NCBI GenBank assembly: GCA_944391025.1
Contig: CALXSC010000110.1
Location: 2,406 to 66,405 of the forward strand
Direction: 5' to 3'
Length of the DNA stretch: 64,000 nt
DNA from: an uncultured Rickettsiales bacterium
GTDB lineage: Bacteria; Pseudomonadota; Alphaproteobacteria; Rickettsiales; UBA1997
The notes under the pieces were generated by a model, which saw only the letters and a list, made by a program, of their open reading frames with translations, did no database searches and was not told the origin of the DNA. A program made the translations under genes and the position numbers. This document shows, piece by piece, positions 5,681 through 54,284 of this stretch (position 1 is the stretch's first letter; each line of letters begins with the position of its first letter).

Positions 5681-5881
5681 AAATATCCGTTAATTAAACA
5701 TGTTTTCTCGGTTGGACTGTACCAGAACAAGTCGGATTCTATACGTCGCTGTAGTATAGCCATTCTTTAAAGTTCTAGGGAGAGAAACTGAGTTGTTTGG
5801 TTATTTGTTGACTTTAAATAGAAATAACCTATAACTAGCTAATCTATAAGGAATGAGAATAACCCTGATTAGTATAGTTTT

Positions 5882-5975: not shown

Positions 5976-6188
5976 ATGAATACAATTTTTCTTATTTATT
6001 TAATCGGAGTTATATGTAGTGTTATTATGACAATTCTTACAGGAATTGAAAAGAGAGATAATAAGATAACTTTTTGGACTGTATTAGCTGGAATAAGTGC
6101 TAGTCTATTATCATGGGGTAGTGTTGCTGTATATGTAGTCCTAATATATCTTGAATATTTAAGTAGCAAATGGACTAAATTAAACTAA
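5976..6188 (+). CDS. hypothetical membrane protein
   Basis: Track ORF 70 aa, two hydrophobic helices. Confidence 0.6.
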   Translation: MNTIFLIYLIGVICSVIMTILTGIEKRDNKITFWTVLAGISASLLSWGSVAVYVVLIYLEYLSSKWTKLN

Positions 6189-6189
6189 C

Positions 6190-6582
6190 ATGGAAGAAGA
6201 AATAATAGATCCAGAAATTAAAGAAAAAATACTTCAAGCCGAATTAAAGTCTCCTGAAGAAAGGACATATGAAGAACGTTATTATGTTTGGTTAAAAGAA
6301 AGATACCAATATCAGGATTATAACGAAGGCGAAGAAATAGAAATATATGATGGCGACAAACTTTATTATAATAAATTACGTGATGGATTTGGTAAAGAAT
6401 TTCCTGAATGGATAAGAGAATGTGGTAAATATTTTGGTAGAAAAGTAAGACAATGTATAACAGGAGAAATCAAAACTCTTATAGGAATTTCTTATACATA
6501 TATGGATTACTATTATATTCTTGAAGATAATGGAGAGAAATCTTATGAAACATGTCTTTCTAGTATTGAAATCTTAGATTGA
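6190..6582 (+). CDS. hypothetical protein
   Basis: Track ORF 130 aa; starts 2 nt after previous stop. Confidence 0.7.
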   Translation: MEEEIIDPEIKEKILQAELKSPEERTYEERYYVWLKERYQYQDYNEGEEIEIYDGDKLYYNKLRDGFGKEFPEWIRECGKYFGRKVRQCITGEIKTLIGISYTYMDYYYILEDNGEKSYETCLSSIEILD

Positions 6583-6625
6583 GTTTTTAGATTAAGATAA
6601 AAAAAAATTGAATTATTAATTAGGA

Positions 6626-6921
6626 GCCGGGATGTTGAAATTGGTAGACAAGACAGACTTAGAAAAATAATCAATATTAGGTAATGAGTGCCTAAAAGGA
6701 AACTTTTAGAGTAGAAGCCAGCTAATTCGGGGAAGGTATCAGCCGTATAAATGATAATAATCCCGAGCTAAATAGAAAAAACTTCTTAAATGTGTACAGA
6801 CTATACACTGGCTACCTAAATCACTACTAAGTGCTATGGTAAAGAGATAGTCGAGAGAGTAGATTACTCTCGAAAATTTGTTGCCTTAACAGGCGTGTGG
6901 GTTCGAGTCCCACTTCCGGTA
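6626..6921 (+). tRNA. tRNA-Leu (anticodon UAA) split by a group I intron; exons 6626-6660 and 6873-6921
   Basis: Acceptor GCCGGGA/TTCCGGT; T arm GTGGG-TTCGAGT-CCCAC; long variable arm; anticodon stem ACAGA/TTTGT. Joined loop is CTT|AAAA, so the insertion lies between U34 and A35. Confidence 0.8.
6661..6872 (+). mobile_element. group I intron (IC3-like), ORF-less, 212 nt
   Basis: 5' exon ends in U and intron ends in G (..CTCG). Core strings GTGTACAGACTATACACTGG, CTACCTAAA, GTGCTATGGTAAAGAGATAGTCG resemble my recollection of cyanobacterial tRNA-Leu and Azoarcus intron cores. Confidence 0.75.
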
Positions 6922-6960
6922 CTAAAACAAATGATTTATTAATATTTTATATTAAACATT

Positions 6961-7392
6961 ATGACAAAATTAATACCTAGAAGTTATGCAAAAGGAGGCT
7001 AGCTTAATAGCCTATAGTTATTTACAGATTTCATAAGTAAATTAGAAGGATGGAAAACTAAATGTAAAAATCTTCATTGGGCTGCTCCTAAAAACAATAT
7101 TCATGTAAGGCTTGATGAGTTTTTAGAAGTTCTTTCAGATTATCAAGATACTTTAGCAGAAGGAATAATGGGATTACTAGGAGTACATCTTGGTCCTAAC
7201 GATATATCAGGAGATCCAGGTAATATAGATAATGCTACTGATTTTATACATCAAGTAAAAACAGAAACATTATCTTTTTATAATAGTATTCCATCAGATA
7301 TACAATATTGTGGATTAAAATCAGAGACTGAAACATTTATTTATAATATTAATAAATACACCTATCTCTTCTCAATTTGCTCTAATGAATAA
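6961..7392 (+). CDS. Dps/ferritin-like protein; needs two in-frame TAGs (7000, 7015) read as sense
   Basis: ATG 6961 is in frame with track ORF 7168-7392. Recoded N-half carries Dps-like K..HW..(N)..H..LDEF...D.LAE spacing (NLHWAAPKNNIHVRLDEFLEVLSDYQDTLAEGI). Confidence 0.65.
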
Positions 7393-7999: not shown

Positions 8000-8148
8000 G
8001 TGATCGAGTTAAAATAATTCGTAGTCATAGTGATGATTTAGGTAAAGAAGGAATTATTGTAGAAGTACGTCCTTCATTCTGTAAAATTGAGATTGAAGGC
8101 TATTCTAAGCCAAAAAATCATTGTTATGGTCAATTTGAGCGAATTTAA
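7969..8148 (+). CDS. small KOW/SH3-like protein (59 aa, below track cutoff)
   Basis: ATG 7969 to TAA 8146; MGKNYKLWNVGDRVKIIRSHSDDLGKEGIIVEVRPSFCKIEIEG... has a G-D-x-V-x-I...G..G.I pattern. Confidence 0.4.
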   Translation: MGKNYKLWNVGDRVKIIRSHSDDLGKEGIIVEVRPSFCKIEIEGYSKPKNHCYGQFERI

Positions 8149-8576
8149 AGCCCTTCGAGGTTAGTGGAAGCCAGCCCTTGCGATTTTATAAAACACTTAT
8201 CTGGTATACTAGGTTGGGTATCCTAGTTGTGGAAAGTTTTAGGATTTTTATCACCAATCAAAAAGAAAAAATCATTTTTAGATTTGTAGATTACTTATAT
8301 TATTAACTTAAACTTTTTGTATTATGTTAGAATGGATTAAAAAAGTTATCAAGTGGTACTTAGACCAACTTAAAGACACTAACGTTTTTGTCCCTACAGG
8401 CATGATACCTGTTTAGGAGTAATCAGATTATTAGATAGGACATTCTCAATACGGAGAATGCTCCTGATGTAGAGAGAAATAAAAGGAACACGTTCTACTA
8501 ACCTCCACGTGGTGTGTTCTGGATAAACAACTGATAAGTAGAGTAAAGAAATAAAATGTTTAATTAAAAAAAAACT

Positions 8577-12410: not shown

Positions 12411-12493
12411 TCCGCCTTCGCATAGAGGTTGATTGCACTAAATTTGTAATTTAGATCCTTAAGGACACGTCAGTTCGAATCTGACAGGCGGAT
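12411..12493 (+). tRNA. class II (long variable arm) tRNA with anticodon UGU; amino-acid identity unclear
   Basis: Perfect 7-bp acceptor TCCGCCT/AGGCGGA; T arm GTCAG-TTCGAAT-CTGAC; anticodon stem CTAAA/TTTAG with loop TTTGTAA; 14-nt variable arm ATCCTTAAGGACAC. Confidence 0.6.
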
Positions 12494-12722
12494 CAAAATA
12501 AAAATTAAAATATTATATAGACTGTGGGAAGGAATCCAGGTTCGAATCCTGTTTGGAAATAGACTACACAACATTGTTTGTCGATTTGGTGTATAGAAAG
12601 GTTAGCACATTCCATAGTTTATTTACTTAGGATGCTTGTTATTAACTTCCTTAACTTGTATATTATAGTGTTAGAAAAATAAAACAAATTGTAAAGAAGC
12701 TATTATAAAAAATTAAAATATT

Positions 12723-16580: not shown

Positions 16581-17846
16581 TTGTGCGGCATTGCTGGTAT
16601 TATTAGTAAAACTCCCAGAGCGTTTGATTATGGAACGTTCTGTACTCTTGGTATTGCAAACGATACTAGAGGTGGAGATTCGTGTGGTATCTTTATTGAT
16701 GGAGTTTGTGATTATGGAGTAGATAAGAAAAAATTATTTACTGATTACTTTATGGACTCCGAAATCTTAAATAATGTAAAGATTTCACAAATAGCTTTAC
16801 TTCATTGTAGAAAAGCTTCTGTAGGATCTATTGGATTAAGTACTGCGCAACCTGTTGTTCTTTACGGTGAGGATGGTCCAGAATTTATAGTAATGCATAA
16901 CGGGACTATTCGGAACTATGAAGAATTAGCTAAAAAGTATATTCCAGATATTAACATAACTGGAATGACTGACTCACAGGTAATGGCTAGAATCTTTTAT
17001 TATAAAGGTTATGAAGTATTGCGTGAATATATTGGGGCAGCAGTATTTGTGATAGTAGATTATAGGAGTGGAGAGCCTGTAACTAAATTATTTAAAGGAC
17101 GTTCTAAATTACATTCTTATTCTGTAGAAGAATCTGACGAAAGGCCTCTTTATTATTGTATTACTAACGGAGAACTGGTATTTTCTTCAATATGGACATA
17201 TTTAGTAGCCTTAAGAAAAGATAGCAGAGTATATTCTCTAAGAGCTAATGAACTTTTAGAATTTAATGGTAAGAATTTAGTAACCGTTGAAGAAATTGAT
17301 CGGTCCAGAGTTGCTCAAACTTTACCTAGTAAGTATTATGATAATAATTCATATCTTTCTAATTATCTATCTATTGACTTAAATAAAAATATTTATAGTT
17401 ATAATAATGCAAGAGCGCATTTTGTATATAATATAGATAATATAGGTAGGTTAAAGATTGCTGATGGAACTGATGTTTATTTCTTTGATGGAGTAGCTCT
17501 TAAGAATAAAGCTTGTTACGATTTCTTAACAAATCTTAGGATTAAAAGTAAACTTCCTTTAAAAATATTTTCTAAGAGATTTGAAAATGTTATAAGGTAT
17601 TTAAGTGTTGATCAAGTTTATCCTATAGGAGATTTATGGTATAGAGCTGTTTCTCCTTTAAAGCATGAATTATTTAGTGGAATATATAATCCTATAATTT
17701 CTTCATGTAGAACAGAATATAAAGGGGGAATAAAATTAGGTACGACATATCTATTTCCTAGAGTTCCTATGTCCGAGTATATTGATGAAAAGAAAGAGTT
17801 TAATTTTAAAAAGATTAGAGAAGAATGCAAGTCTTTGATGAAATAA
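16581..17846 (+). CDS. class II (Ntn) glutamine amidotransferase with uncharacterised C-terminal half
   Basis: TTG start then Cys2 (MCGIAGI); RGGDSCGIF, HCRKAS, MHNGTIRNYEEL, TDSQV. Confidence 0.8.
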   Translation: MCGIAGIISKTPRAFDYGTFCTLGIANDTRGGDSCGIFIDGVCDYGVDKKKLFTDYFMDSEILNNVKISQIALLHCRKASVGSIGLSTAQPVVLYGEDGPEFIVMHNGTIRNYEELAKKYIPDINITGMTDSQVMARIFYYKGYEVLREYIGAAVFVIVDYRSGEPVTKLFKGRSKLHSYSVEESDERPLYYCITNGELVFSSIWTYLVALRKDSRVYSLRANELLEFNGKNLVTVEEIDRSRVAQTLPSKYYDNNSYLSNYLSIDLNKNIYSYNNARAHFVYNIDNIGRLKIADGTDVYFFDGVALKNKACYDFLTNLRIKSKLPLKIFSKRFENVIRYLSVDQVYPIGDLWYRAVSPLKHELFSGIYNPIISSCRTEYKGGIKLGTTYLFPRVPMSEYIDEKKEFNFKKIREECKSLMK

Positions 17847-18703
17847 ACAAAAAGTTTATATCTACTAGCAAGGCAAAAAGAACTGTAGTAGACATATGTA
17901 ATGATACTATTGTATATGGATATGTCCCAAAAGACAGTGAAATGGTTACTTTTAGGTATATTGATAGTTACTTTGAGGGAAGTTATGAACTATTAAAAGA
18001 TAAATTAGTATATAGTAATCTACGTGGAGTATATATGCTTAAAAATCACATGTCTCTTGAAGATATAATAAACAATAGTTATCTCATGGGGCGTGGTGAT
18101 TTTCCTTATAGTTTTTCTAGAAAATATGAAGCTGTAGAGAATTTTGATATATTTTATAATAAGCAGAAAATACTAAATCCCGAAGAATTTCCTATTTCTA
18201 ATTATTTTAAATATACTTTCGGATTAGAATTTGAAACTTCTATGGGTTATATTCCTGAACGAATTTGTTATCGTGATGGATTAATTCCCTTAAGAGATGG
18301 ATCAATTCATGGATTAGAGTATTCTACTGTAGTATTAAAGGGTAATGATGGGTTATCTTTATTAAAACAGCAGTTAAATTCTTTAAAAGAATATACTGCG
18401 TTTGATAAAGAATGCTCATTACATATCCATATGGGTAATTTCCCACTAGAACCTGGAGCTATATTTAATGCATATAAAATATTTTATAGTATACAAGAGA
18501 ATATTGCCCTTCTAGTTCCTCCATTAACTTTTAGAGGAGACAAATATAAAGAAAATGGAAAGAACTATTGCAAGCTTTTAGAAAGATATGAGGATTTTGA
18601 TAAAATGTATCTTCATTTGGTAGGGGTTCCGTTTTTTGGAGACTTAATGCAGCCTCACCCTAAAGATTTATCAAGATCCTCTAAGTGGCATATAGATACT
18701 CGT
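17825..18703 (+). CDS. Amidoligase_2 / glutamine-synthetase-like carboxylate-amine ligase, exon 1
   Basis: FGLEFETS, LRDGSIHGLEYSTVVLKG, CSLHIHMG. The frame ends at the intron's TAA just after ..WHIDTR. Confidence 0.75.
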
Positions 18704-19555
18704 TAAGATAATGGCGAGGCTAATTGGTGACAATTAGAAAAATAAATTGGGTGAATTTAGGGAAATCTAAATAAAATTAGTATATTTGTAGTATGGAAAA
18801 TAATGAATTAAAACGTAAAAGTTATTAGAATTATCCTTTTTATAAAGGACAGGTAATAGATGCTATTACCATTTTAGAAGACGATTTTGTTTATGTCGAT
18901 GGAAGATACCTGGTTAAATTTGAATGTAGATGTGGAAAGGTTGATTATAAAAGATTAAATATATTACAGAAAATGCAATTTAAATGTTGTAAATATTGCG
19001 AAAGAAAAAATAATTATCCAGAAAAGAGAAAATCTAGAGGATATTTTGATGAAAACAATATGCACAAAACTTGGTTATCTGTAATAAAACAAAATTTAGA
19101 TAGAGGTAGTAAACACATCGAATGTACTATTACTATGCAAGATCTATATGATACCTTAAAAAAGCAAAATTTTAAATGTGCTTATACTGGAAAAGATCTT
19201 AATGTAGTAGGAGTACTTAGAGATCAATCTAATGGATCTGTAGATAGAATTGATTCTTCTAAAGGATATATTCCAGATAATATTCAATGGGTTTATAAAC
19301 CTATTAATATTATGAAAAATAGCTTTACTGATGAAATTTTTAAAAATCTATGCTATAAGGTTGCTGATTTTACAAGACAATCCTAAGCCAAGCTAAAGGT
19401 TAATAACTTTAGAAGGTTCAGAGACTAGACACTGAAACTCTATTTGGAGAATATAATGTGTCCACGAGTGCCCAACATCTTATATAGATGATGATATAGT
19501 CCGATACCTAAAGGAAACTTTAGGATGCAAGATAAAGAGCTTGCTATAACATTTG
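18704..19555 (+). mobile_element. group I intron (IC3-like) carrying an HNH endonuclease ORF
   Basis: 5' exon ends in U (CGT|) and intron ends in G (ACATTTG|). Core TAAGCCAAGC, GAAGGTTCAGAGACTAGACAC (19412-19432), ATATAGTCCGA (19494-19504). Splicing restores the family motif ..TR|YYAVN..IEFRF. Confidence 0.75.
18793..19386 (+). CDS. intron-encoded HNH homing endonuclease (one in-frame TAG at 18826)
   Basis: ATG 18793 lies 2 nt after a TATATTTGTA box and is in frame with track ORF 18973-19386; SVDRIDSSKGYIPDNIQWVYKPINIMK HNH-type motif; CxxC pairs. Confidence 0.75.
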
Positions 19556-19897
19556 TATTACGCTGTGAACTTCATTAATATACTCTGTTATGCTGTTAAT
19601 AAAACCATTGAATTTAGATTTCTTAGGCCTACTTATAATTTTCATAAAATATTAGTTTGGCTAGCTATATTTAATGCGGTTCTAGAATATGCAGAACGAA
19701 GATTACCTATTCCTTCTACAAACAGGTTGAAAAATATTATCATTAAAATTTATGATGATCCTAAGATTCGTGATTTTGTTTTAGAAGGTATTTATAAATT
19801 AAGAGCACTAGCTAATTTACAGAGTAATAATGGTGATTCTATTGGAAATGATGTAAGTTTTGAGGATAAATTATTTAATGATGAACGATATAATTAA
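19556..19897 (+). CDS. Amidoligase_2 ligase, exon 2
   Basis: YYAVNFINIL....TIEFRFLRPTYN continues the family's C-terminal motif; same frame as track ORF 19553-19897. Confidence 0.75.
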   Translation, partial: YYAVNFINILCYAVNKTIEFRFLRPTYNFHKILVWLAIFNAVLEYAERRLPIPSTNRLKNIIIKIYDDPKIRDFVLEGIYKLRALANLQSNNGDSIGNDVSFEDKLFNDERYN

Positions 19898-20233: not shown

Positions 20234-20319
20234 GAGGGTGTGGTGAAATTTGGTTGAAACACGCCAGTCTCTGGTACGGATTGATGATCACGTTGTGAGT
20301 TCGAATCTCACCACCCTTA
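20234..20319 (+). ncRNA. tRNA-like RNA lacking a canonical anticodon arm
   Basis: 7-bp acceptor GAGGGTG/CACCCTT; U8; T arm GTGAG-TTCGAAT-CTCAC; D-like arm. The 31 nt between them fold only as CCAG-TCT-CTGG. T8 run follows. Confidence 0.45.
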
Positions 20320-20340
20320 CTTTTTTTTAATTAATTTAAA

Positions 20341-51721: not shown

Positions 51722-51942
51722 AATACAAACTTTTTGTTGATGAATATGTTTCTTTATGGAGACGTAATGACATAGAGATAGAAGCAGAATCTAAAGAAGA
51801 AGTAATTAGTAAATATAAAGACGGAGAATATGAACTTCTTGATAGCTACTATTTATCAGAAACTGAATCAATGCCTAAGAACTATGAGATTTATAATGAT
51901 GAAACTGAAGAGCTTATTTATTCTGAAATTTTAGAGGAATGA
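51718..51942 (+). CDS. hypothetical acidic protein
   Basis: Track ORF 74 aa. Confidence 0.6.
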   Translation: MKYKLFVDEYVSLWRRNDIEIEAESKEEVISKYKDGEYELLDSYYLSETESMPKNYEIYNDETEELIYSEILEE

Positions 51943-53228
51943 TATATTTAGTAACTAATAATATAGAAATATTTCCTAATGATCTATACACTATAATTAG
52001 CATTGAAGAAAGTCTAAATTTACTTGAACCATTAAAAATAGTAGGATTGGATAGTGAAACTTCAGGATTAAAAGTACATCAAGATAAATTACTTTCTTTA
52101 CAATTAGGATGTTATGAATTTCAAGTAGTTATTGATTGTTCTAGCGTTAATATAACTTATTATAAGGATTATCTCGAATCTGATCGCCTTTTTGTTGGAC
52201 ATAATTTAAAGTTTGATCTTCAGTGGCTTTACCTATATCATATCGTTCCAAAAAACATATATGATACCTATTTAGGAGAACTTATACTATGGAATGGGTA
52301 TCCAATAGTAATTACTCCTGATACTTATGATAAAATTGAGTGTGATAGGTATGAATATGTTCCTGGAGATGAGAAAAGTAAAAAGAAATCTCATTATATG
52401 CTGTCTACTAGCTTAAAGGCTATTTCTAAAATATATCTAGGAATAGATAGAGATAAATCTATTAGAGGTCAAATAATTTGGAAAGGAATCAAAGATTCTT
52501 TAGTTATTCAATATGCTGCTGATGATGTAAAATATATGGAACAATTGATGAATAAGCAATTAGAAGAACTGAAAAGAAATAATCAGGAGAAAGCTATTGA
52601 TTTACTTAATAGGTTTACTGTAGTGGTTGCTTATATGGAGTTCTGTGGAGTGCGGTTAGATACTGCTAAATGGCAAGAAAAAATGAAGAGAGACCAAGCA
52701 GAATTAAATAAATGCATAGATGAAATAACTGAGTGGATAGTTAATGACAATCCTAATTCTCCATATATTTATAGAGATTTTCAGGGAGATCTATTTTCTG
52801 GATATAATACTAAGCCTCAATTAAAGATAAATTTAAATAGCCCTAAACAAGTTATCAGTATGTTTAAATCATATGGAATAACTGTTACTGTAGATAAAAA
52901 AGGTGAAGTTTCTGAATCTATTGATGCAAAATCATTAGCTCCTCAAGCTTCTAAATGCGGTTTAATTCCGATATATCTTAAATATAAAGAACAGGCTAAA
53001 TTAGTTGGTACTTATGGTGAAAATGTTTTAAAGCAAGTAAATAAAAATACAGGCAGATTATATACAAAGTATAATACTAAAGGTACCGACACTTTCAGAA
53101 TATCTTCTGGAGGAAAAGATGGAACTATTAAATATGTTAATATGTTAAATATCCCTTCAGATTCCTTTACTAGATCATGTTTCGTAGCAGAACCTGGTAA
53201 TAAGTGGATTAGTATAGATTTCTCAGGT
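51939..53228 (+). CDS. polA: family A DNA polymerase, exon 1 (3'-5' exonuclease and N-terminal polymerase part)
   Basis: Exo I VGLDSETSG, Exo II HNLKFDLQWL, Exo III YAADDV; ends ..ISIDFSG inside motif A. Confidence 0.85.
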
Positions 53229-53459
53229 TAAAAATACTTCATATAATGTTTATATGATAATGCTCATTATTTTTTTTTAAAGAAAAATAATTTTGGCCCT
53301 ATATTAAAGAAATTTAATATAAGTAACTCCGTAAATTCAGTTAATGGAGAGTATCCTAAGACTGAGCCAAGCCTTACTAAGGAAGGTGCAGAGACTAGAA
53401 ACGGAGAACCTAATGAGTAATACTCTATGGTTAAGGTATAGTCCAACGTAAGTACGTTG
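53229..53459 (+). mobile_element. group I intron (IC3-like), ORF-less, 231 nt
   Basis: Exon ends in U (GGT|), intron ends in G (ACGTTG|). TGAGCCAAGCC, GGAAGGTGCAGAGACTAGAAACGG (53381-53404), GGTATAGTCCAAC (53435-53447). Splicing restores motif A DFSG|QESFLLA. Confidence 0.8.
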
Positions 53460-54284
53460 CAAGAAAGCTTTTTATTAGCCTCTATAGCTAATGATGAAGC
53501 TATGATTTATGAATTAATGGAGGGAGAAAAGGATTTACATACTCTAACTGCTAAATTAGTATTTTCAGAGATACCTAAAGATATGCCTGCTGATGAAGTT
53601 AAGAAAAAATATCATGATTTGAGACAGAAAGCTAAGGGATATGAGTTTGCATTTGGATATGGAGGATCTGCTCATACCTTAATGCAAAACTATGGACTTC
53701 CTAAGCAAGAAGCTGAGAGAATTTATAATTCATATATGTCTGGATTTTCAGGATTGAAACGTTATCAAGATTGGAGAAGACAAGATTGGAAAGAAAAAGG
53801 ATATATATTATTAAGTCCTATATTTGGTTTTAGAGCAAATATATATGATTATAAATATTTAGCCAAGTTAAAACAAAAATTTGATGATCCTGTATATAAA
53901 GAGTACTATAATGAAATGAAACAATCCAATCCTAATTGTAATACTGTTCAGGAAAGAAAGAATTATTACAAACGAATCTCTGAATCTGATAGACAATCTA
54001 TTAATTATTTAATTCAACATGCAGGTGCTCTTTGTACAATGACTGCTGCTATCATATTCTTCAATTATTTAAGACAGAACAATCTTCTTTTTAAAGTATT
54101 GATTACTGTAATGCCGTATGATGAATTTAATTGTGAAGCTCCTGAAGAGATAGCTAATGAAGTTGCTAATATTTTATATAAATGTATGGTAAAAGCAGGA
54201 AGTTATTATTGTACTAGATGTAAACTGGATGCAGATATAAGTACAGATAAAGAAGGTAATTTACCTACATATTGGATACATTAA
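53460..54284 (+). CDS. polA: family A DNA polymerase, exon 2
   Basis: Motif B RQKAKGYEFAFGYGGS, motif C VMPYDEF; 275 codons in frame. Confidence 0.85.
   Translation, partial: QESFLLASIANDEAMIYELMEGEKDLHTLTAKLVFSEIPKDMPADEVKKKYHDLRQKAKGYEFAFGYGGSAHTLMQNYGLPKQEAERIYNSYMSGFSGLKRYQDWRRQDWKEKGYILLSPIFGFRANIYDYKYLAKLKQKFDDPVYKEYYNEMKQSNPNCNTVQERKNYYKRISESDRQSINYLIQHAGALCTMTAAIIFFNYLRQNNLLFKVLITVMPYDEFNCEAPEEIANEVANILYKCMVKAGSYYCTRCKLDADISTDKEGNLPTYWIH

What the first reader, a model, noticed from the sequence alone, without database searches (positions are those of the whole stretch)
6626..6921. Phage tRNA-Leu(UAA) interrupted by a group I intron at the cyanobacterial U34/A35 position
The hand-folded exons give a complete class II tRNA-Leu. 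The anticodon loop CTT|AAAA is split after U34 by 212 nt (6661-6872).

The insert obeys group I rules: U before the 5' splice site and a terminal G. It carries strings (GTGTACAGACTATACACTGG, CTACCTAAA, GCTATGGTAAAGAGATAGTCG) that closely resemble what I recall of the Anabaena tRNA-Leu and Azoarcus tRNA-Ile IC3 intron cores.

That intron-tRNA pairing is regarded as ancient in cyanobacteria and plastids. Finding it in a phage with Bacteroidota-type signals would be an unexpected reservoir or vector. Functional tRNA-Leu(UAA) would also depend on splicing.
Basis: partly seen in the sequence, partly recalled or inferred. Interest (0 to 1): 0.7.

Follow-up and report, generated by a model that had tools for sequence, protein, structure and literature searches.

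The report
Self-splicing intron in phage tRNA-Leu gene
A gut crAss-like phage carries a leucine tRNA gene split by a small self-splicing (group I) RNA intron, one of a so far unannotated family of such introns in phage tRNA genes, although a 2014 review said that all phage group I introns known then sat in protein genes.

Summary
Exons 6626-6660 and 6873-6921 join into a class II tRNA-Leu(UAA). The 212-nt insert (6661-6872) lies between U34 and A35. It scores 55.1 bits (cutoff 50, E 2e-13) on Rfam's group I intron model, but only in a local scan; whole-window scans and default ARAGORN miss it.

It has the IC3-type core: a 4-bp P1 with a U.G wobble, P2 with a GAAA loop, P3-P8, a receptor-like P8 and a terminal G. 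Its P9 domain is cut down to one hairpin.

The window is a crAss001-like Bacteroides phage, and a second group I intron splits its DNA polymerase gene.

The cyanobacterial reading is only partly right. Split tRNA-Leu(UAA) genes with the same site occur in Bacteroidota, Gammaproteobacteria and Firmicutes-labelled genomes, and in many phages. These include the cultured Agrobacterium phage Atu_ph07, where the gene is unannotated.

The window intron's closest relatives (82-87% core identity) are phage introns in tRNA-Leu, tRNA-Ser and tRNA-Arg genes. Cyanobacterial introns are about 52% identical. Longer relatives carry HNH or PD-(D/E)XK homing endonuclease genes in the P1 loop, so this copy looks like an ORF-less derivative of a mobile phage lineage.

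Splicing itself is inferred, not shown.

The parts
6626..6660 (+). 5' exon of tRNA-Leu(UAA): acceptor 5' strand, D arm, anticodon stem 5' strand and loop bases C32 U33 U34. It ends in ...GACUU.
   Evidence: ARAGORN with intron option. Coordinates checked.
6661..6872 (+). Group I intron, 212 nt, with no ORF.
   Evidence: Rfam RF00028, 55.1 bits, E 2e-13. ARAGORN intron call. Aligned with 34 other tRNA group I introns.
6661..6685 (+). P1 loop, the segment between the 5' splice site and the guide sequence. In longer relatives this is where the homing endonuclease ORF sits.
   Evidence: Comparison with L011, L013, L014, L272 and L006. U6685 can pair with A35, the first 3' exon base (a 1-bp P10). 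This position covaries with base 35 in 11 of 12 relatives.
6686..6689 (+). Internal guide sequence GAGU. It pairs with exon ACUU (6657-6660) to form P1, with a U34.G6686 wobble at the splice site.
   Evidence: Read from the sequence. GAG is invariant in all 12 subclade members, and all 12 have CUU before the splice site. The pairing is inferred.
6692..6709 (+). P2 hairpin, 7 bp, closed by a GAAA tetraloop (6699-6702).
   Evidence: All 7 pairs show changes on both sides across the subclade. Also found in the minimum-free-energy fold.
6716..6721 (+). P3 5' strand (AGCCAG). Pairs with 6808-6813.
   Evidence: 5 of 6 pairs covary.
6727..6766 (+). P4-P5 domain: P4 is 6727-6732 with 6761-6766; P5 is 6737-6741 with 6752-6756; L5 is 6742-6751.
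   Evidence: 100% of cells paired. One P4 pair and two P5 pairs covary. The P5 sequence is specific to this phage subclade.
6767..6793 (+). P6/P6a, a short hairpin (AGAA/UUCU). In relatives it holds insertions of 100 nt or more.
   Evidence: Poorly alignable, so it was not tested for covariation.
6797..6803 (+). P7 5' strand (C-A-GACUA, with A6798 bulged). Pairs with 6848-6853. This is the expected guanosine-binding helix.
   Evidence: C6797-G6853 switches to G-C in 6 of 12 relatives. The other five pairs do not covary: four are invariant and one is unpaired in a single relative. The role as G-binding site is inferred from established group I structure.
6808..6813 (+). P3 3' strand (CUGGCU).
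6815..6839 (+). P8 hairpin with an 11-nt-receptor-like motif (CCUAAA ... UAUGG). It is the presumed docking site for the P2 GAAA loop.
   Evidence: The receptor position is G.U in 7 relatives, A.C in 4, and A-U in the window. Docking is inferred by analogy with Azoarcus (my own knowledge, not tested here).
6840..6853 (+). J8/7 (UAAAGAGA) and the P7 3' strand (UAGUCG).
   Evidence: The block GGTAAAGAGAnAGTC is among the most conserved across the 35 tRNA introns aligned.
6855..6872 (+). P9, a single 7-bp hairpin (6855-6871), followed directly by the terminal guanosine G6872.
   Evidence: A hairpin of different sequence occupies this place in all 12 subclade members. The longer P9.0/P9 domain with a GAAA loop seen in most other tRNA introns is absent.
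6873..6921 (+). 3' exon: A35 A36 A37 A38, anticodon stem 3' strand, long variable arm, T arm, acceptor 3' strand and discriminator A. No CCA is encoded.

Best explanation
This is a real, probably splicing-competent group I intron of the compact tRNA (IC3-like) type. It interrupts a working phage tRNA-Leu(UAA) gene between U34 and A35.

Proposed pathway:
1. The pre-tRNA is transcribed.
2. The end of exon 1 (ACUU) pairs with the guide sequence GAGU to form P1, with a U.G wobble at the splice site.
3. Free guanosine, bound in P7, cleaves after U34.
4. The terminal G6872 takes the guanosine site, and U34 is joined to A35. The exons are held together mainly by the tRNA anticodon stem, plus a 1-bp P10.
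5. The result is the anticodon loop CUUAAAA.
6. Ordinary end-trimming and CCA addition then give a tRNA that reads UUA. UUA is the phage's most used leucine codon.

The intron is an ORF-less, minimal member of a phage-borne lineage. Longer members carry HNH or PD-(D/E)XK homing endonuclease genes in the P1 loop and occupy several tRNAs that have U33-U34. It most likely arrived by homing between phage tRNA genes and later lost its endonuclease gene.

Shown here: the family match, exact boundaries, the helices with covariation, the relatives and their endonuclease genes. Inferred: splicing activity, the order of steps, the homing history, and the tertiary contacts.
For: Family match and boundaries:
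- Rfam RF00028, 55.1 bits (above the cutoff of 50), E 2e-13, full-length match.
- Boundaries obey the U / terminal-G rule, and the joined exons fold as a class II tRNA-Leu(UAA).

Structure, from the 12-member subclade alignment:
- 95.8% of cells form standard pairs, against 82% when the 3' letters are shuffled and at most 46% when partners are slid by 1-3 columns.
- 19 of 36 pairs change on both sides; 0 of 500 shuffles reach this.
- P7 C-G switches to G-C six times.
- A P9 hairpin is present in all 12, and the P10 base tracks base 35 in 11 of 12.
- All 12 have a 5' exon ending in CUU.

Relationships:
- Nearest relatives: L273 Leu 86.6%, L011 Ser 85.1%, L280 Leu 84.2%, L274 Arg 82.4%.
- The clade has 199/200 bootstrap support.

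Mobility:
- PDDEXK_5 (PF11645) ORFs in the L011 and L010 introns score 54 and 62 bits.
- HNH ORFs occur in L013 and L006, and in chromosomal Bacteroidota tRNA-Leu introns. L006 and L203 are 41% identical, E 5e-34.

Context:
- The window is a crAss001-like phage.
- A second group I intron splits its PolA gene.
- TTA is 43 per 1000 codons, about half of all Leu codons, in a 28.9% GC genome.
Against: - No RNA data: splicing was not observed.
- The Rfam score is only 5 bits above the cutoff.
- P1 is only 4 bp.
- The P9 domain with the GAAA loop seen in most other tRNA introns is missing. In Azoarcus that loop makes a stabilising contact (my own knowledge). Folding may therefore be weaker or need help.
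- One relative (L280) has A instead of G at the terminal position, so members of this lineage can decay.
- No intron-less allele of this particular tRNA was found, so there is no direct evidence of gain.
Confidence: 0.82

Rival explanations
1. The intron is a decayed, splicing-dead remnant. The tRNA-Leu(UAA) gene would then be a pseudogene kept only by recent descent.
For: - Reduced P9, short P1, no ORF.
- Rfam score just above the cutoff.
- Relative L280 lacks the terminal G.
- The other assemblies are 100% identical, so they say nothing about selection.
Against: - Every core helix is intact in the window copy.
- Differences from relatives are compensatory: window GCCAG/CUGGC against L011 GCUGG/CCAGC in P3, and C-G against G-C in P7.
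- The most conserved core blocks shared by 35 tRNA introns are present.
- The tRNA exons fold without defect.
- The tRNA decodes the phage's commonest Leu codon.
Confidence: 0.1
2. The intron-tRNA pair comes directly from the ancient cyanobacterial/plastid tRNA-Leu(UAA) intron, with the phage acting as its reservoir or vector.
For: Identical insertion site and the same conserved core blocks.
Against: - Cyanobacterial introns are the most distant tRNA-Leu group: mean 52% and maximum 57% core identity, 18-24 bits in nhmmer.
- Phage relatives score up to 107 bits.
- The spliced tRNA is closer to Bacteroidota tRNA-Leu (75-79% for six of the seven, 73% for L194) than to cyanobacterial tRNA-Leu (73%).
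- The same site is used in several other phyla.
Confidence: 0.03
3. The split gene was captured whole from a Bacteroidota host chromosome, tRNA and intron together. On this view it was not invaded by an intron moving between phage tRNA genes.
For: - The exons are Bacteroidota-like. The first seven bases of the acceptor stem (GCCGGGA) match the Arsenicibacter gene (L140), and identity to Bacteroidota tRNA-Leu(UAA) is 73-79%.
- Bacteroidota chromosomes carry introns at this site with HNH genes homologous to the phage ones.
Against: - The intron core is 58% identical on average (maximum 64%) to Bacteroidota introns. It is 82-87% identical to phage introns in tRNA-Ser, tRNA-Arg and other tRNA-Leu genes. 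The intron and exon histories therefore differ.
- The Bacteroidota hits are environmental orders, not gut Bacteroidales.
Confidence: 0.1
4. The intron is kept because it is useful, not merely tolerated. One version: it destroys the anticodon-loop DNA target of homing endonucleases carried by competing phages. Another version: it makes tRNA-Leu(UAA) supply depend on the GTP/Mg2+ state or on the stage of infection.
For: - Related introns encode endonucleases, and the intron sits at the spot where such enzymes would be expected to cut the tRNA gene. Target specificity is inferred, not tested.
- ORF-less copies persist in several phages.
Against: Nothing here tests function. Persistence is equally well explained by neutral self-splicing.
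Confidence: 0.15

Closest known systems
[quoted passage not shown] 1990 and Xu et al. 1990, as cited in PMC3984707)
   Same: Same gene, same insertion site (U34|A35; exon context ACUU|AAAAU), same core blocks in J3/4, J6/7-P7 and J8/7-P7', a GAAA loop on P2, a terminal G, and compact size.
   Different: - Only about 52% identical over the core, and in a separate, strongly supported clade.
- P5 has a different sequence.
- The P9.0/P9 domain with its GAAA loop is replaced by one short hairpin next to the terminal G.
- The host genome is a phage.
Azoarcus tRNA-Ile(CAU) group I intron (the structurally solved IC3 ribozyme)
   Same: From my own recall of the Azoarcus sequence, not tested here: about 200 nt, very short P1, P2 GAAA loop with an 11-nt-type receptor in P8, and exons held by the anticodon stem.
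   Different: - Different tRNA and a different position in the loop.
- Azoarcus has a second tetraloop contact (L9 to P5), for which the window intron has no counterpart.
- The window receptor reads CCUAAA/UAUGG, not CCUAAG/UAUGG.
Group I introns of phage protein-coding genes (T4 td/nrdB/nrdD, SPO1 polymerase, crAss-like delta/zeta group genes; PMC3984707, PMC7886860)
   Same: Phage-borne, self-splicing and often linked to homing endonuclease genes. This same window has one in its PolA gene.
   Different: - Those introns interrupt ORFs.
- The 2014 review states that all phage introns observed to that date are in protein-coding genes, despite many phage tRNA genes.
- This one interrupts a tRNA anticodon loop.
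tRNA-fMet intron of Synechocystis with endonuclease I-Ssp6803I (Bonocora and Shub 2001, as cited in PMC3984707)
   Same: A tRNA anticodon-loop group I intron carrying an endonuclease. Relatives L011 and L010 carry PDDEXK_5 (PF11645) ORFs. That I-Ssp6803I is a PD-(D/E)XK enzyme is from my own knowledge.
   Different: The window copy has no ORF, and the tRNA and site differ.

Membership tests
Group I intron (Rfam RF00028) | Covariance-model score at or above the curated gathering score | tested here: met
   55.1 bits against 50, E 2.1e-13, model positions 1-253. Found only in a local scan; whole-window scans filter it out.
Group I intron (Rfam RF00028) | U before the 5' splice site able to form a U.G wobble with a guide sequence (P1), and a terminal G at the 3' end | tested here: met
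   U6660 with G6686, in ACUU/GAGU; G6872 is the last intron base. GAG and CUU are invariant in 12 relatives.
Group I intron (Rfam RF00028) | Core helices P3-P8, including the P3/P7 pseudoknot, supported by covariation | tested here: met
   Of the 36 pairs tested, 95.8% of cells are paired, 19 pairs change on both sides, and 0/500 shuffles reach this. Slid controls give at most 46%.
Group I intron (Rfam RF00028) | Guanosine-dependent self-splicing | not testable with these tools
   Needs in vitro transcription and splicing, or RNA data.
IC3-type bacterial tRNA introns (Azoarcus/Anabaena type) | Inserted in a tRNA anticodon loop, with an alignable conserved core | tested here: met
   U34|A35. 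Aligns with 34 tRNA introns from cyanobacteria, Bacteroidota, Proteobacteria, Firmicutes-labelled genomes and viral contigs, sharing 42 invariant columns. No subgroup-specific model was available, so 'IC3' rests on this alignment.
IC3-type bacterial tRNA introns (Azoarcus/Anabaena type) | P2 GAAA tetraloop and an 11-nt-type receptor in P8 | tested here: met
   GAAA at 6699-6702; CCUAAA...UAUGG at 6815-6839, a variant of CCUAAG/UAUGG. Docking itself was not tested.
IC3-type bacterial tRNA introns (Azoarcus/Anabaena type) | Extended P9.0/P9 domain ending in a GAAA loop | tested here: not met
   Replaced by one 7-bp hairpin with a GAU loop next to the terminal G. L011 and L013 in the broad alignment share the reduction, and all 12 subclade members have a single hairpin there. 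I treat this as a peripheral feature, not a core one.
Cyanobacterial/plastid tRNA-Leu(UAA) intron lineage | Same gene and same insertion site | tested here: met
   ACUU|AAAAU in the window and in all cyanobacterial examples retrieved.
Cyanobacterial/plastid tRNA-Leu(UAA) intron lineage | Closest sequence relatives are cyanobacterial or plastid introns | tested here: not met
   Mean 52%, maximum 57% core identity, against 82-87% to phage introns. The phage clade has 199/200 bootstrap support. nhmmer gives 18-24 bits against 107. Plastid sequences were not sampled.
Class II tRNA-Leu | Cloverleaf with long variable arm, anticodon UAA and discriminator A73 after splicing | tested here: met
   ARAGORN on the hand-spliced sequence. 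The exons hit Bacillus phage tRNA-Leu genes as two pieces at 87%. tRNAscan-SE and the Rfam tRNA model could not be run on the spliced sequence.
Mobile (homing) group I intron | Intron-encoded homing endonuclease | tested here: not met
   No ORF in the 212 nt. Relatives carry HNH or PDDEXK_5 ORFs in the P1 loop, so mobility of this copy would need an enzyme supplied in trans.

The most novel reading that the evidence does not exclude
Group I introns in phage tRNA genes may be a widespread, overlooked class of mobile element.
- They home, by HNH and PD-(D/E)XK endonucleases, into the U33-U34 anticodon-loop DNA of several tRNAs: Leu-UAA, Leu-UAG, Ser-UGA, Arg-UCU and Lys-UUU.
- They move between phages, and between phages and bacterial chromosomes.
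- Phages would then be the vector behind the patchy, multi-phylum spread of the 'ancient' tRNA-Leu(UAA) intron.
- Carrying an intron could also protect a phage's tRNA genes from competitors' endonucleases.
Probability: 0.3. Interest if true: 0.75.

Novelty: new member of a known kind. Interest (0 to 1): 0.6.

Why it matters
**Reported distribution of phage introns.** The 2014 review of bacterial group I introns says all phage introns seen to that date are in protein-coding genes (PMC3984707). A 2025 paper still describes their preference for nucleotide-synthesis and DNA-metabolism genes (PMC12350094). This window shows a phage tRNA gene with such an intron. Two short pattern scans turned up 17 more IMG/VR loci. 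GenBank holds unannotated examples in a cultured jumbo phage (Atu_ph07) and a 735-kb huge phage.

**Annotation.** Default tRNA finders and whole-genome Rfam scans miss these genes, so phage tRNA sets are undercounted. That affects work on codon usage and stop-codon recoding in crAss-like and jumbo phages.

**Origin of the tRNA-Leu intron.** Endonuclease-bearing copies in phages, homologous to those in Bacteroidota chromosomes, offer a concrete route for horizontal spread. This bears on the old question of whether the intron is ancient or mobile. Atu_ph07 gives a culturable system to test it.

**Ribozyme design.** The subclade is a naturally trimmed ribozyme of about 190 nt between the guide sequence and the terminal G. 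It lacks the P9 tetraloop domain, which may interest ribozyme and circular-RNA engineers.

Tried and rejected
- Whole-window Rfam scans at gathering and at E-value thresholds and default ARAGORN did not find the intron. This is a filter or settings effect, not evidence of absence.
- blastn of the intron against 50,697 GenBank phage records found no match. With exons included, only the exons match.
- I looked for an intron-less or near-identical allele of this tRNA in IMG/VR using exon patterns and found none.
- I looked for the same locus in relatives through the upstream ORF 6190-6582. The homologues lie in tRNA-rich regions but have no tRNA-Leu(UAA) next to them. Gain or loss at this locus therefore could not be dated.
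- The look-up of encoding contigs gave only 100% identical copies, so there is no population variation to use.
- The 15-mer scan of viral contigs returned mostly hits with no detectable intron and needed filtering with nhmmer and ARAGORN.
- 4 of the 18 metagenome hits were chance matches: L268, L275, L279 and L285.
- ARAGORN's anticodon labels for many split genes (Phe-aaa, Stop-tta, Gln, Trp) are unreliable. I re-read L001/L013 (Leu-UAA), L014/L271 (Leu-UAG), L010 (Lys-UUU) and L011 (Ser-UGA) by hand. L046 and the gut Clostridia set were left unresolved.
- I did not build a custom covariance model. MAFFT misaligns P9 and P6, so P9 was checked by folding each tail and P6 was left untested.
- Eight literature searches found no report of a group I intron in a phage tRNA gene. 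The library lacks most subscription-journal papers, so prior description cannot be excluded.
Full report
**1. The observation**

The sequence at 6626-6921 is as described.
- ARAGORN with its intron option finds tRNA-Leu(taa) at 6626-6922, with a 212-nt intron between gactt and aaaat.
- Joining 6626-6660 to 6873-6921 by hand gives a normal class II cloverleaf. It has anticodon loop CUUAAAA, a long variable arm, discriminator A and no encoded CCA (coordinates rechecked).
- A local Rfam scan (6550-7000) gives Intron_gpI RF00028 at 6668-6871: 55.1 bits against a gathering score of 50, E 2.1e-13, full model.
- Default ARAGORN and two whole-window Rfam scans report nothing here. Infernal's speed filters remove the hit when 64 kb is searched at once. 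Features like this would therefore go unannotated in routine pipelines.
- The region is 100% identical in two further assemblies, and a third short contig is identical up to its end inside the 5' exon. Phage genes lie on both sides, so it is not an assembly chimera. One of the assemblies may be the window's own source.

**2. Anatomy**

I mapped the helices from the Rfam alignment, from alignments with relatives and by direct reading.

| Element | Coordinates | Note |
|---|---|---|
| P1 | exon ACUU 6657-6660 with GAGU 6686-6689 | U34.G wobble at the splice site |
| P1 loop | 6661-6685 | 25 nt |
| P2 | 6692-6709 | GAAA tetraloop |
| P3 | 6716-6721 with 6808-6813 | |
| P4 | 6727-6732 with 6761-6766 | |
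| P5 | 6737-6741 with 6752-6756 | |
| P6 | 6767-6793 | short |
| P7 | 6797-6803 with 6848-6853 | A6798 bulged |
| P8 | 6815-6839 | CCUAAA...UAUGG, an 11-nt-receptor-like motif |
| J8/7 | 6840-6847 | UAAAGAGA |
| P9 | 6855-6871 | one 7-bp hairpin |
| Terminal G | 6872 | |

The minimum-free-energy fold recovers P2, P3, P4-P5, P6a and P9, with z = -2.8.

**3. Is the structure under selection?**

A subclade-specific pattern (TAATTNGGGGAAGGTANNAGCC) retrieved relatives from IMG/VR and from metagenomes. I counted 36 pairs (P2, P3, P4, P5, P7, P8) on a 12-sequence alignment (A2).
- 95.8% of cells form standard pairs. Column shuffles give 82%, and sliding partners by 1-3 columns gives at most 46%.
- 19 pairs change on both sides, and 0 of 500 shuffles reach this.
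- All 7 P2 pairs and 5 of 6 P3 pairs covary.
- P7 C6797-G6853 is G-C in 6 of the 12 sequences.
- The receptor position is G.U in seven sequences, A.C in four, and A-U in the window.

Further points:
- P9 is a hairpin of different sequence in all 12.
- The base just 5' of GAG tracks the first 3' exon base: U with A eight times, C with G once, U with G once, G with C once, and one mismatch. This amounts to a 1-bp P10.
- All 12 have a 5' exon ending in CUU.

The structure was derived partly from the window sequence, which inflates the percentage paired. It does not inflate the double-sided changes.

**4. What the window is**

- The downstream DpsA-like gene matches crAss-like phages at 67-77% nucleotide identity.
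- The DNA polymerase A N-terminal ORF is 57% identical in protein to Bacteroides phage crAss001 and its relatives. The window is therefore a Steigviridae-like crAss phage.
- GC content is 28.9%. TTA is the most used Leu codon, at 43 per 1000 codons and about half of all Leu codons. A phage tRNA-Leu(UAA) has an obvious use.
- The phage carries more introns. PolA is split into ORFs covering profile positions 29-160 and 166-375. Between them lies a 225-nt element that scores 49.9 bits, E 8e-12, on RF00028.
- A third group I-like core lies near 19,370-19,545.

**5. Relatives and the cyanobacterial question**

One capped scan of representative bacterial genomes, followed by ARAGORN, found tRNA-Leu(UAA) genes split at ACUU|AAAAU in several groups:
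- cyanobacteria;
- Bacteroidota (Arcicella, Arsenicibacter, Spirosomataceae, Cytophagales);
- Gammaproteobacteria;
- genomes labelled Bacilli/Firmicutes;
- Armatimonadota.

The same scan found tRNA-Arg(CCU) introns in Bartonella and Acetobacteraceae, and introns in gut Clostridia that appear to sit in tRNA-Asn(GUU).

In viral contigs, introns of this type sit in these tRNAs:

| tRNA | Loci |
|---|---|
| Leu(UAA) | L001/L013, L006, L036, L038, L049, L112 |
| Leu(UAG) | L014, L271 |
| Ser(UGA) | L011, L270, L282 |
| Arg(UCU) | L060, L062, L063, L083, L100, L274 |
| Lys(UUU) | L010 |

Almost all are inserted after U34. L083 appears to be inserted after U33.

Core identity to the window intron:

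| Intron | Core identity to window |
|---|---|
| L273, Leu-UAA | 86.6% |
| L011, Ser-UGA | 85.1% |
| L280, Leu-UAA | 84.2% |
| L274, Arg-UCU | 82.4% |
| Bacteroidota tRNA-Leu | mean 58%, max 64% |
| Cyanobacterial tRNA-Leu | mean 52%, max 57% |

- nhmmer gives the same ranking: 107 bits for L011 against 18-24 bits for the cyanobacterial introns.
- A neighbour-joining tree recovers the 12-member phage/metagenome subclade in 199 of 200 bootstraps. Branching inside the subclade is poorly resolved.
- The subclade has a distinct P5 (GGUAUCAGCC...UGAUAAUAAUCC). In the broad alignment the window, L011 and L013 lack the long P9.0/P9 GAAA domain that most other tRNA introns carry, and all 12 subclade tails fold as one short hairpin.
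- The spliced tRNA is closest to a phage tRNA (L049, 80%). Six of the seven Bacteroidota tRNA-Leu genes come next (75-79%); the seventh (L194) scores 73%, level with the cyanobacterial genes.

The site is the classical one, but the intron is not a close relative of the cyanobacterial intron. Within the phage lineage the intron tree does not follow tRNA identity. That pattern fits movement between tRNA genes.

**6. Mobility**

Subclade introns range from 212 nt (the window, the shortest) to 844 nt. The extra length is mostly an ORF in the P1 loop.
- The L011 and L010 ORFs match PDDEXK_5 (PF11645) at 54 and 62 bits.
- L013 and L006, and the chromosomal Bacteroidota introns L137 and L203, carry HNH ORFs. 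These score just below Pfam cutoffs but have clear motifs.
- L006 is 48% identical to L013, and 41% identical to the Spirosomataceae ORF (E 5e-34).
- L280 keeps the last codons of the HNH ORF just before the guide sequence, a sign of ORF loss by deletion.

The window copy is therefore best read as an ORF-less derivative.

**7. Published record**

- Hausner, Hafez and Edgell 2014 state that all phage introns observed to that date are in protein-coding genes, despite many phage tRNA genes (PMC3984707).
- Yutin et al. 2021 report group I introns in crAss-like protein genes only. They found tRNAs with tRNAscan-SE in bacterial mode (PMC7886860).
- Merk et al. 2025 still describe the preference of phage group I introns for nucleotide-synthesis and DNA-metabolism genes (PMC12350094).
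- Al-Shayeb et al. 2020 do not use the word 'intron' (PMC7162821).
- Eight searches found no report of a phage tRNA group I intron.

GenBank nevertheless holds examples.
- Agrobacterium jumbo phage Atu_ph07 has a tRNA-Leu(UAA) gene with a 278-nt intron at the same site. RF00028 scores it 48.9 bits, E 1.6e-11. The intron is unannotated, and a 'hypothetical protein' CDS is drawn over the 3' exon and the end of the intron.
- The 735-kb phage LR756501 has a tRNA-Leu(UAA) gene with a 205-nt intron.

The library lacks most subscription-journal papers, so an earlier description cannot be ruled out.

**8. Verdict**

- It is a new member of a known kind: a compact tRNA-type group I intron at the classical tRNA-Leu(UAA) site.
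- Its genomic setting, a phage tRNA gene, contradicts the 2014 review's statement about where phage group I introns lie.
- It belongs to a distinct phage subclade with trimmed peripheral structure.
- Self-splicing, homing history and any benefit to the phage are inferred, not shown.
- Interest is moderate to high (0.6). The interest lies less in this single copy than in the unannotated family it points to, and in a testable phage route for spread of the tRNA-Leu intron.

Noticed in passing
window 53232-53456 (flanked by ORFs 51939-53231 and 53457-54284): A second group I intron, about 225 nt with no ORF, splits the DNA polymerase A gene. Rfam RF00028 gives 49.9 bits, E 8e-12, in a local scan. 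The two ORFs cover Pfam DNA_pol_A positions 29-160 and 166-375.
   Followed up: yes
window about 19370-19545, with upstream ORF 18973-19386: A third group I-like core (GACAATCCTAAGCCAAG...AGAGACTAGAC...GATATAGTCC, ending in a P9-like hairpin with a GAAA loop). It lies after a 137-aa ORF with no Pfam hit, and between ORFs 17825-18706 and 19553-19897. nhmmer gives 22 bits.
   Followed up: partly
window about 6960-7392: The DpsA-like gene just downstream of the tRNA has two in-frame TAG codons. TAG ends only 3 of 46 long ORFs. This suggests TAG is read as an amino acid in at least part of this phage, as reported for crAss-like beta-group phages.
   Followed up: partly
window 12411-12494 and 20234-20320: Two oddly long tRNA calls: Thr(UGU) at 84 nt with an extra arm, and 'Gln(CUG)' at 87 nt with a poorly paired anticodon stem and a long variable arm. 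The second might be a mis-called or unusual (suppressor?) tRNA.
   Followed up: no
L286 1157-1518 (MF403008.1, Agrobacterium phage Atu_ph07, about 112,890-113,251, complementary strand): A cultured 490-kb jumbo phage has a tRNA-Leu(UAA) gene with a 278-nt group I intron at U34|A35. The intron is not annotated, and CDS AUZ94936.1 ('hypothetical protein') is drawn over the 3' exon and the end of the intron.
   Followed up: yes
L289 563-853 (LR756501.1, 735-kb uncultured huge phage): tRNA-Leu(UAA) with a 205-nt group I intron at the same site. It is 82.6% identical to the L038 intron.
   Followed up: partly
L280 10858-11043: A close relative of the window intron (84% core identity), in a tRNA-Leu(UAA) gene of a 156-kb contig. 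It has A where the terminal G should be (...GCTCTTA|AAAATCC). It may be a decaying copy, or a different 3' splice site.
   Followed up: no
L011 (about 8050-8420, minus strand) and L014 (about 5700-5800, minus strand): The endonuclease ORFs inside these phage tRNA introns contain in-frame TAG codons, so they appear to use the phages' recoded stop codon.
   Followed up: partly
L003 6654-11115: An 11.9-kb viral contig with five separate Rfam group I intron hits of 52-75 bits within about 4.5 kb.
   Followed up: no
L273 8464-8547 and 7616-8184; L011 9780-10269: The phage-like contigs that carry window-type tRNA introns also encode a Hatchet ribozyme (82 bits) and tmRNAs (58 and 97 bits).
   Followed up: no
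L148, L149, L168, L202 and similar (gut Clostridia/Lachnospiraceae MAG contigs): A tight family of 216-248-nt group I introns in a tRNA whose loop reads CUGU|UAA. This looks like tRNA-Asn(GUU) split after base 35. ARAGORN labels them inconsistently as Asn, Phe, Asp, Trp or Cys. In the NJ tree they are the group nearest the window subclade.
   Followed up: partly
L006 about 6150-6450 and 7024-7270 (minus strand): The 101-kb viral contig with an HNH-bearing tRNA-Leu intron has another Rfam group I hit (65.9 bits). It also has a further intron-like stretch that ends in a tRNA 3' half, so several tRNA genes in one array may be split.
   Followed up: no
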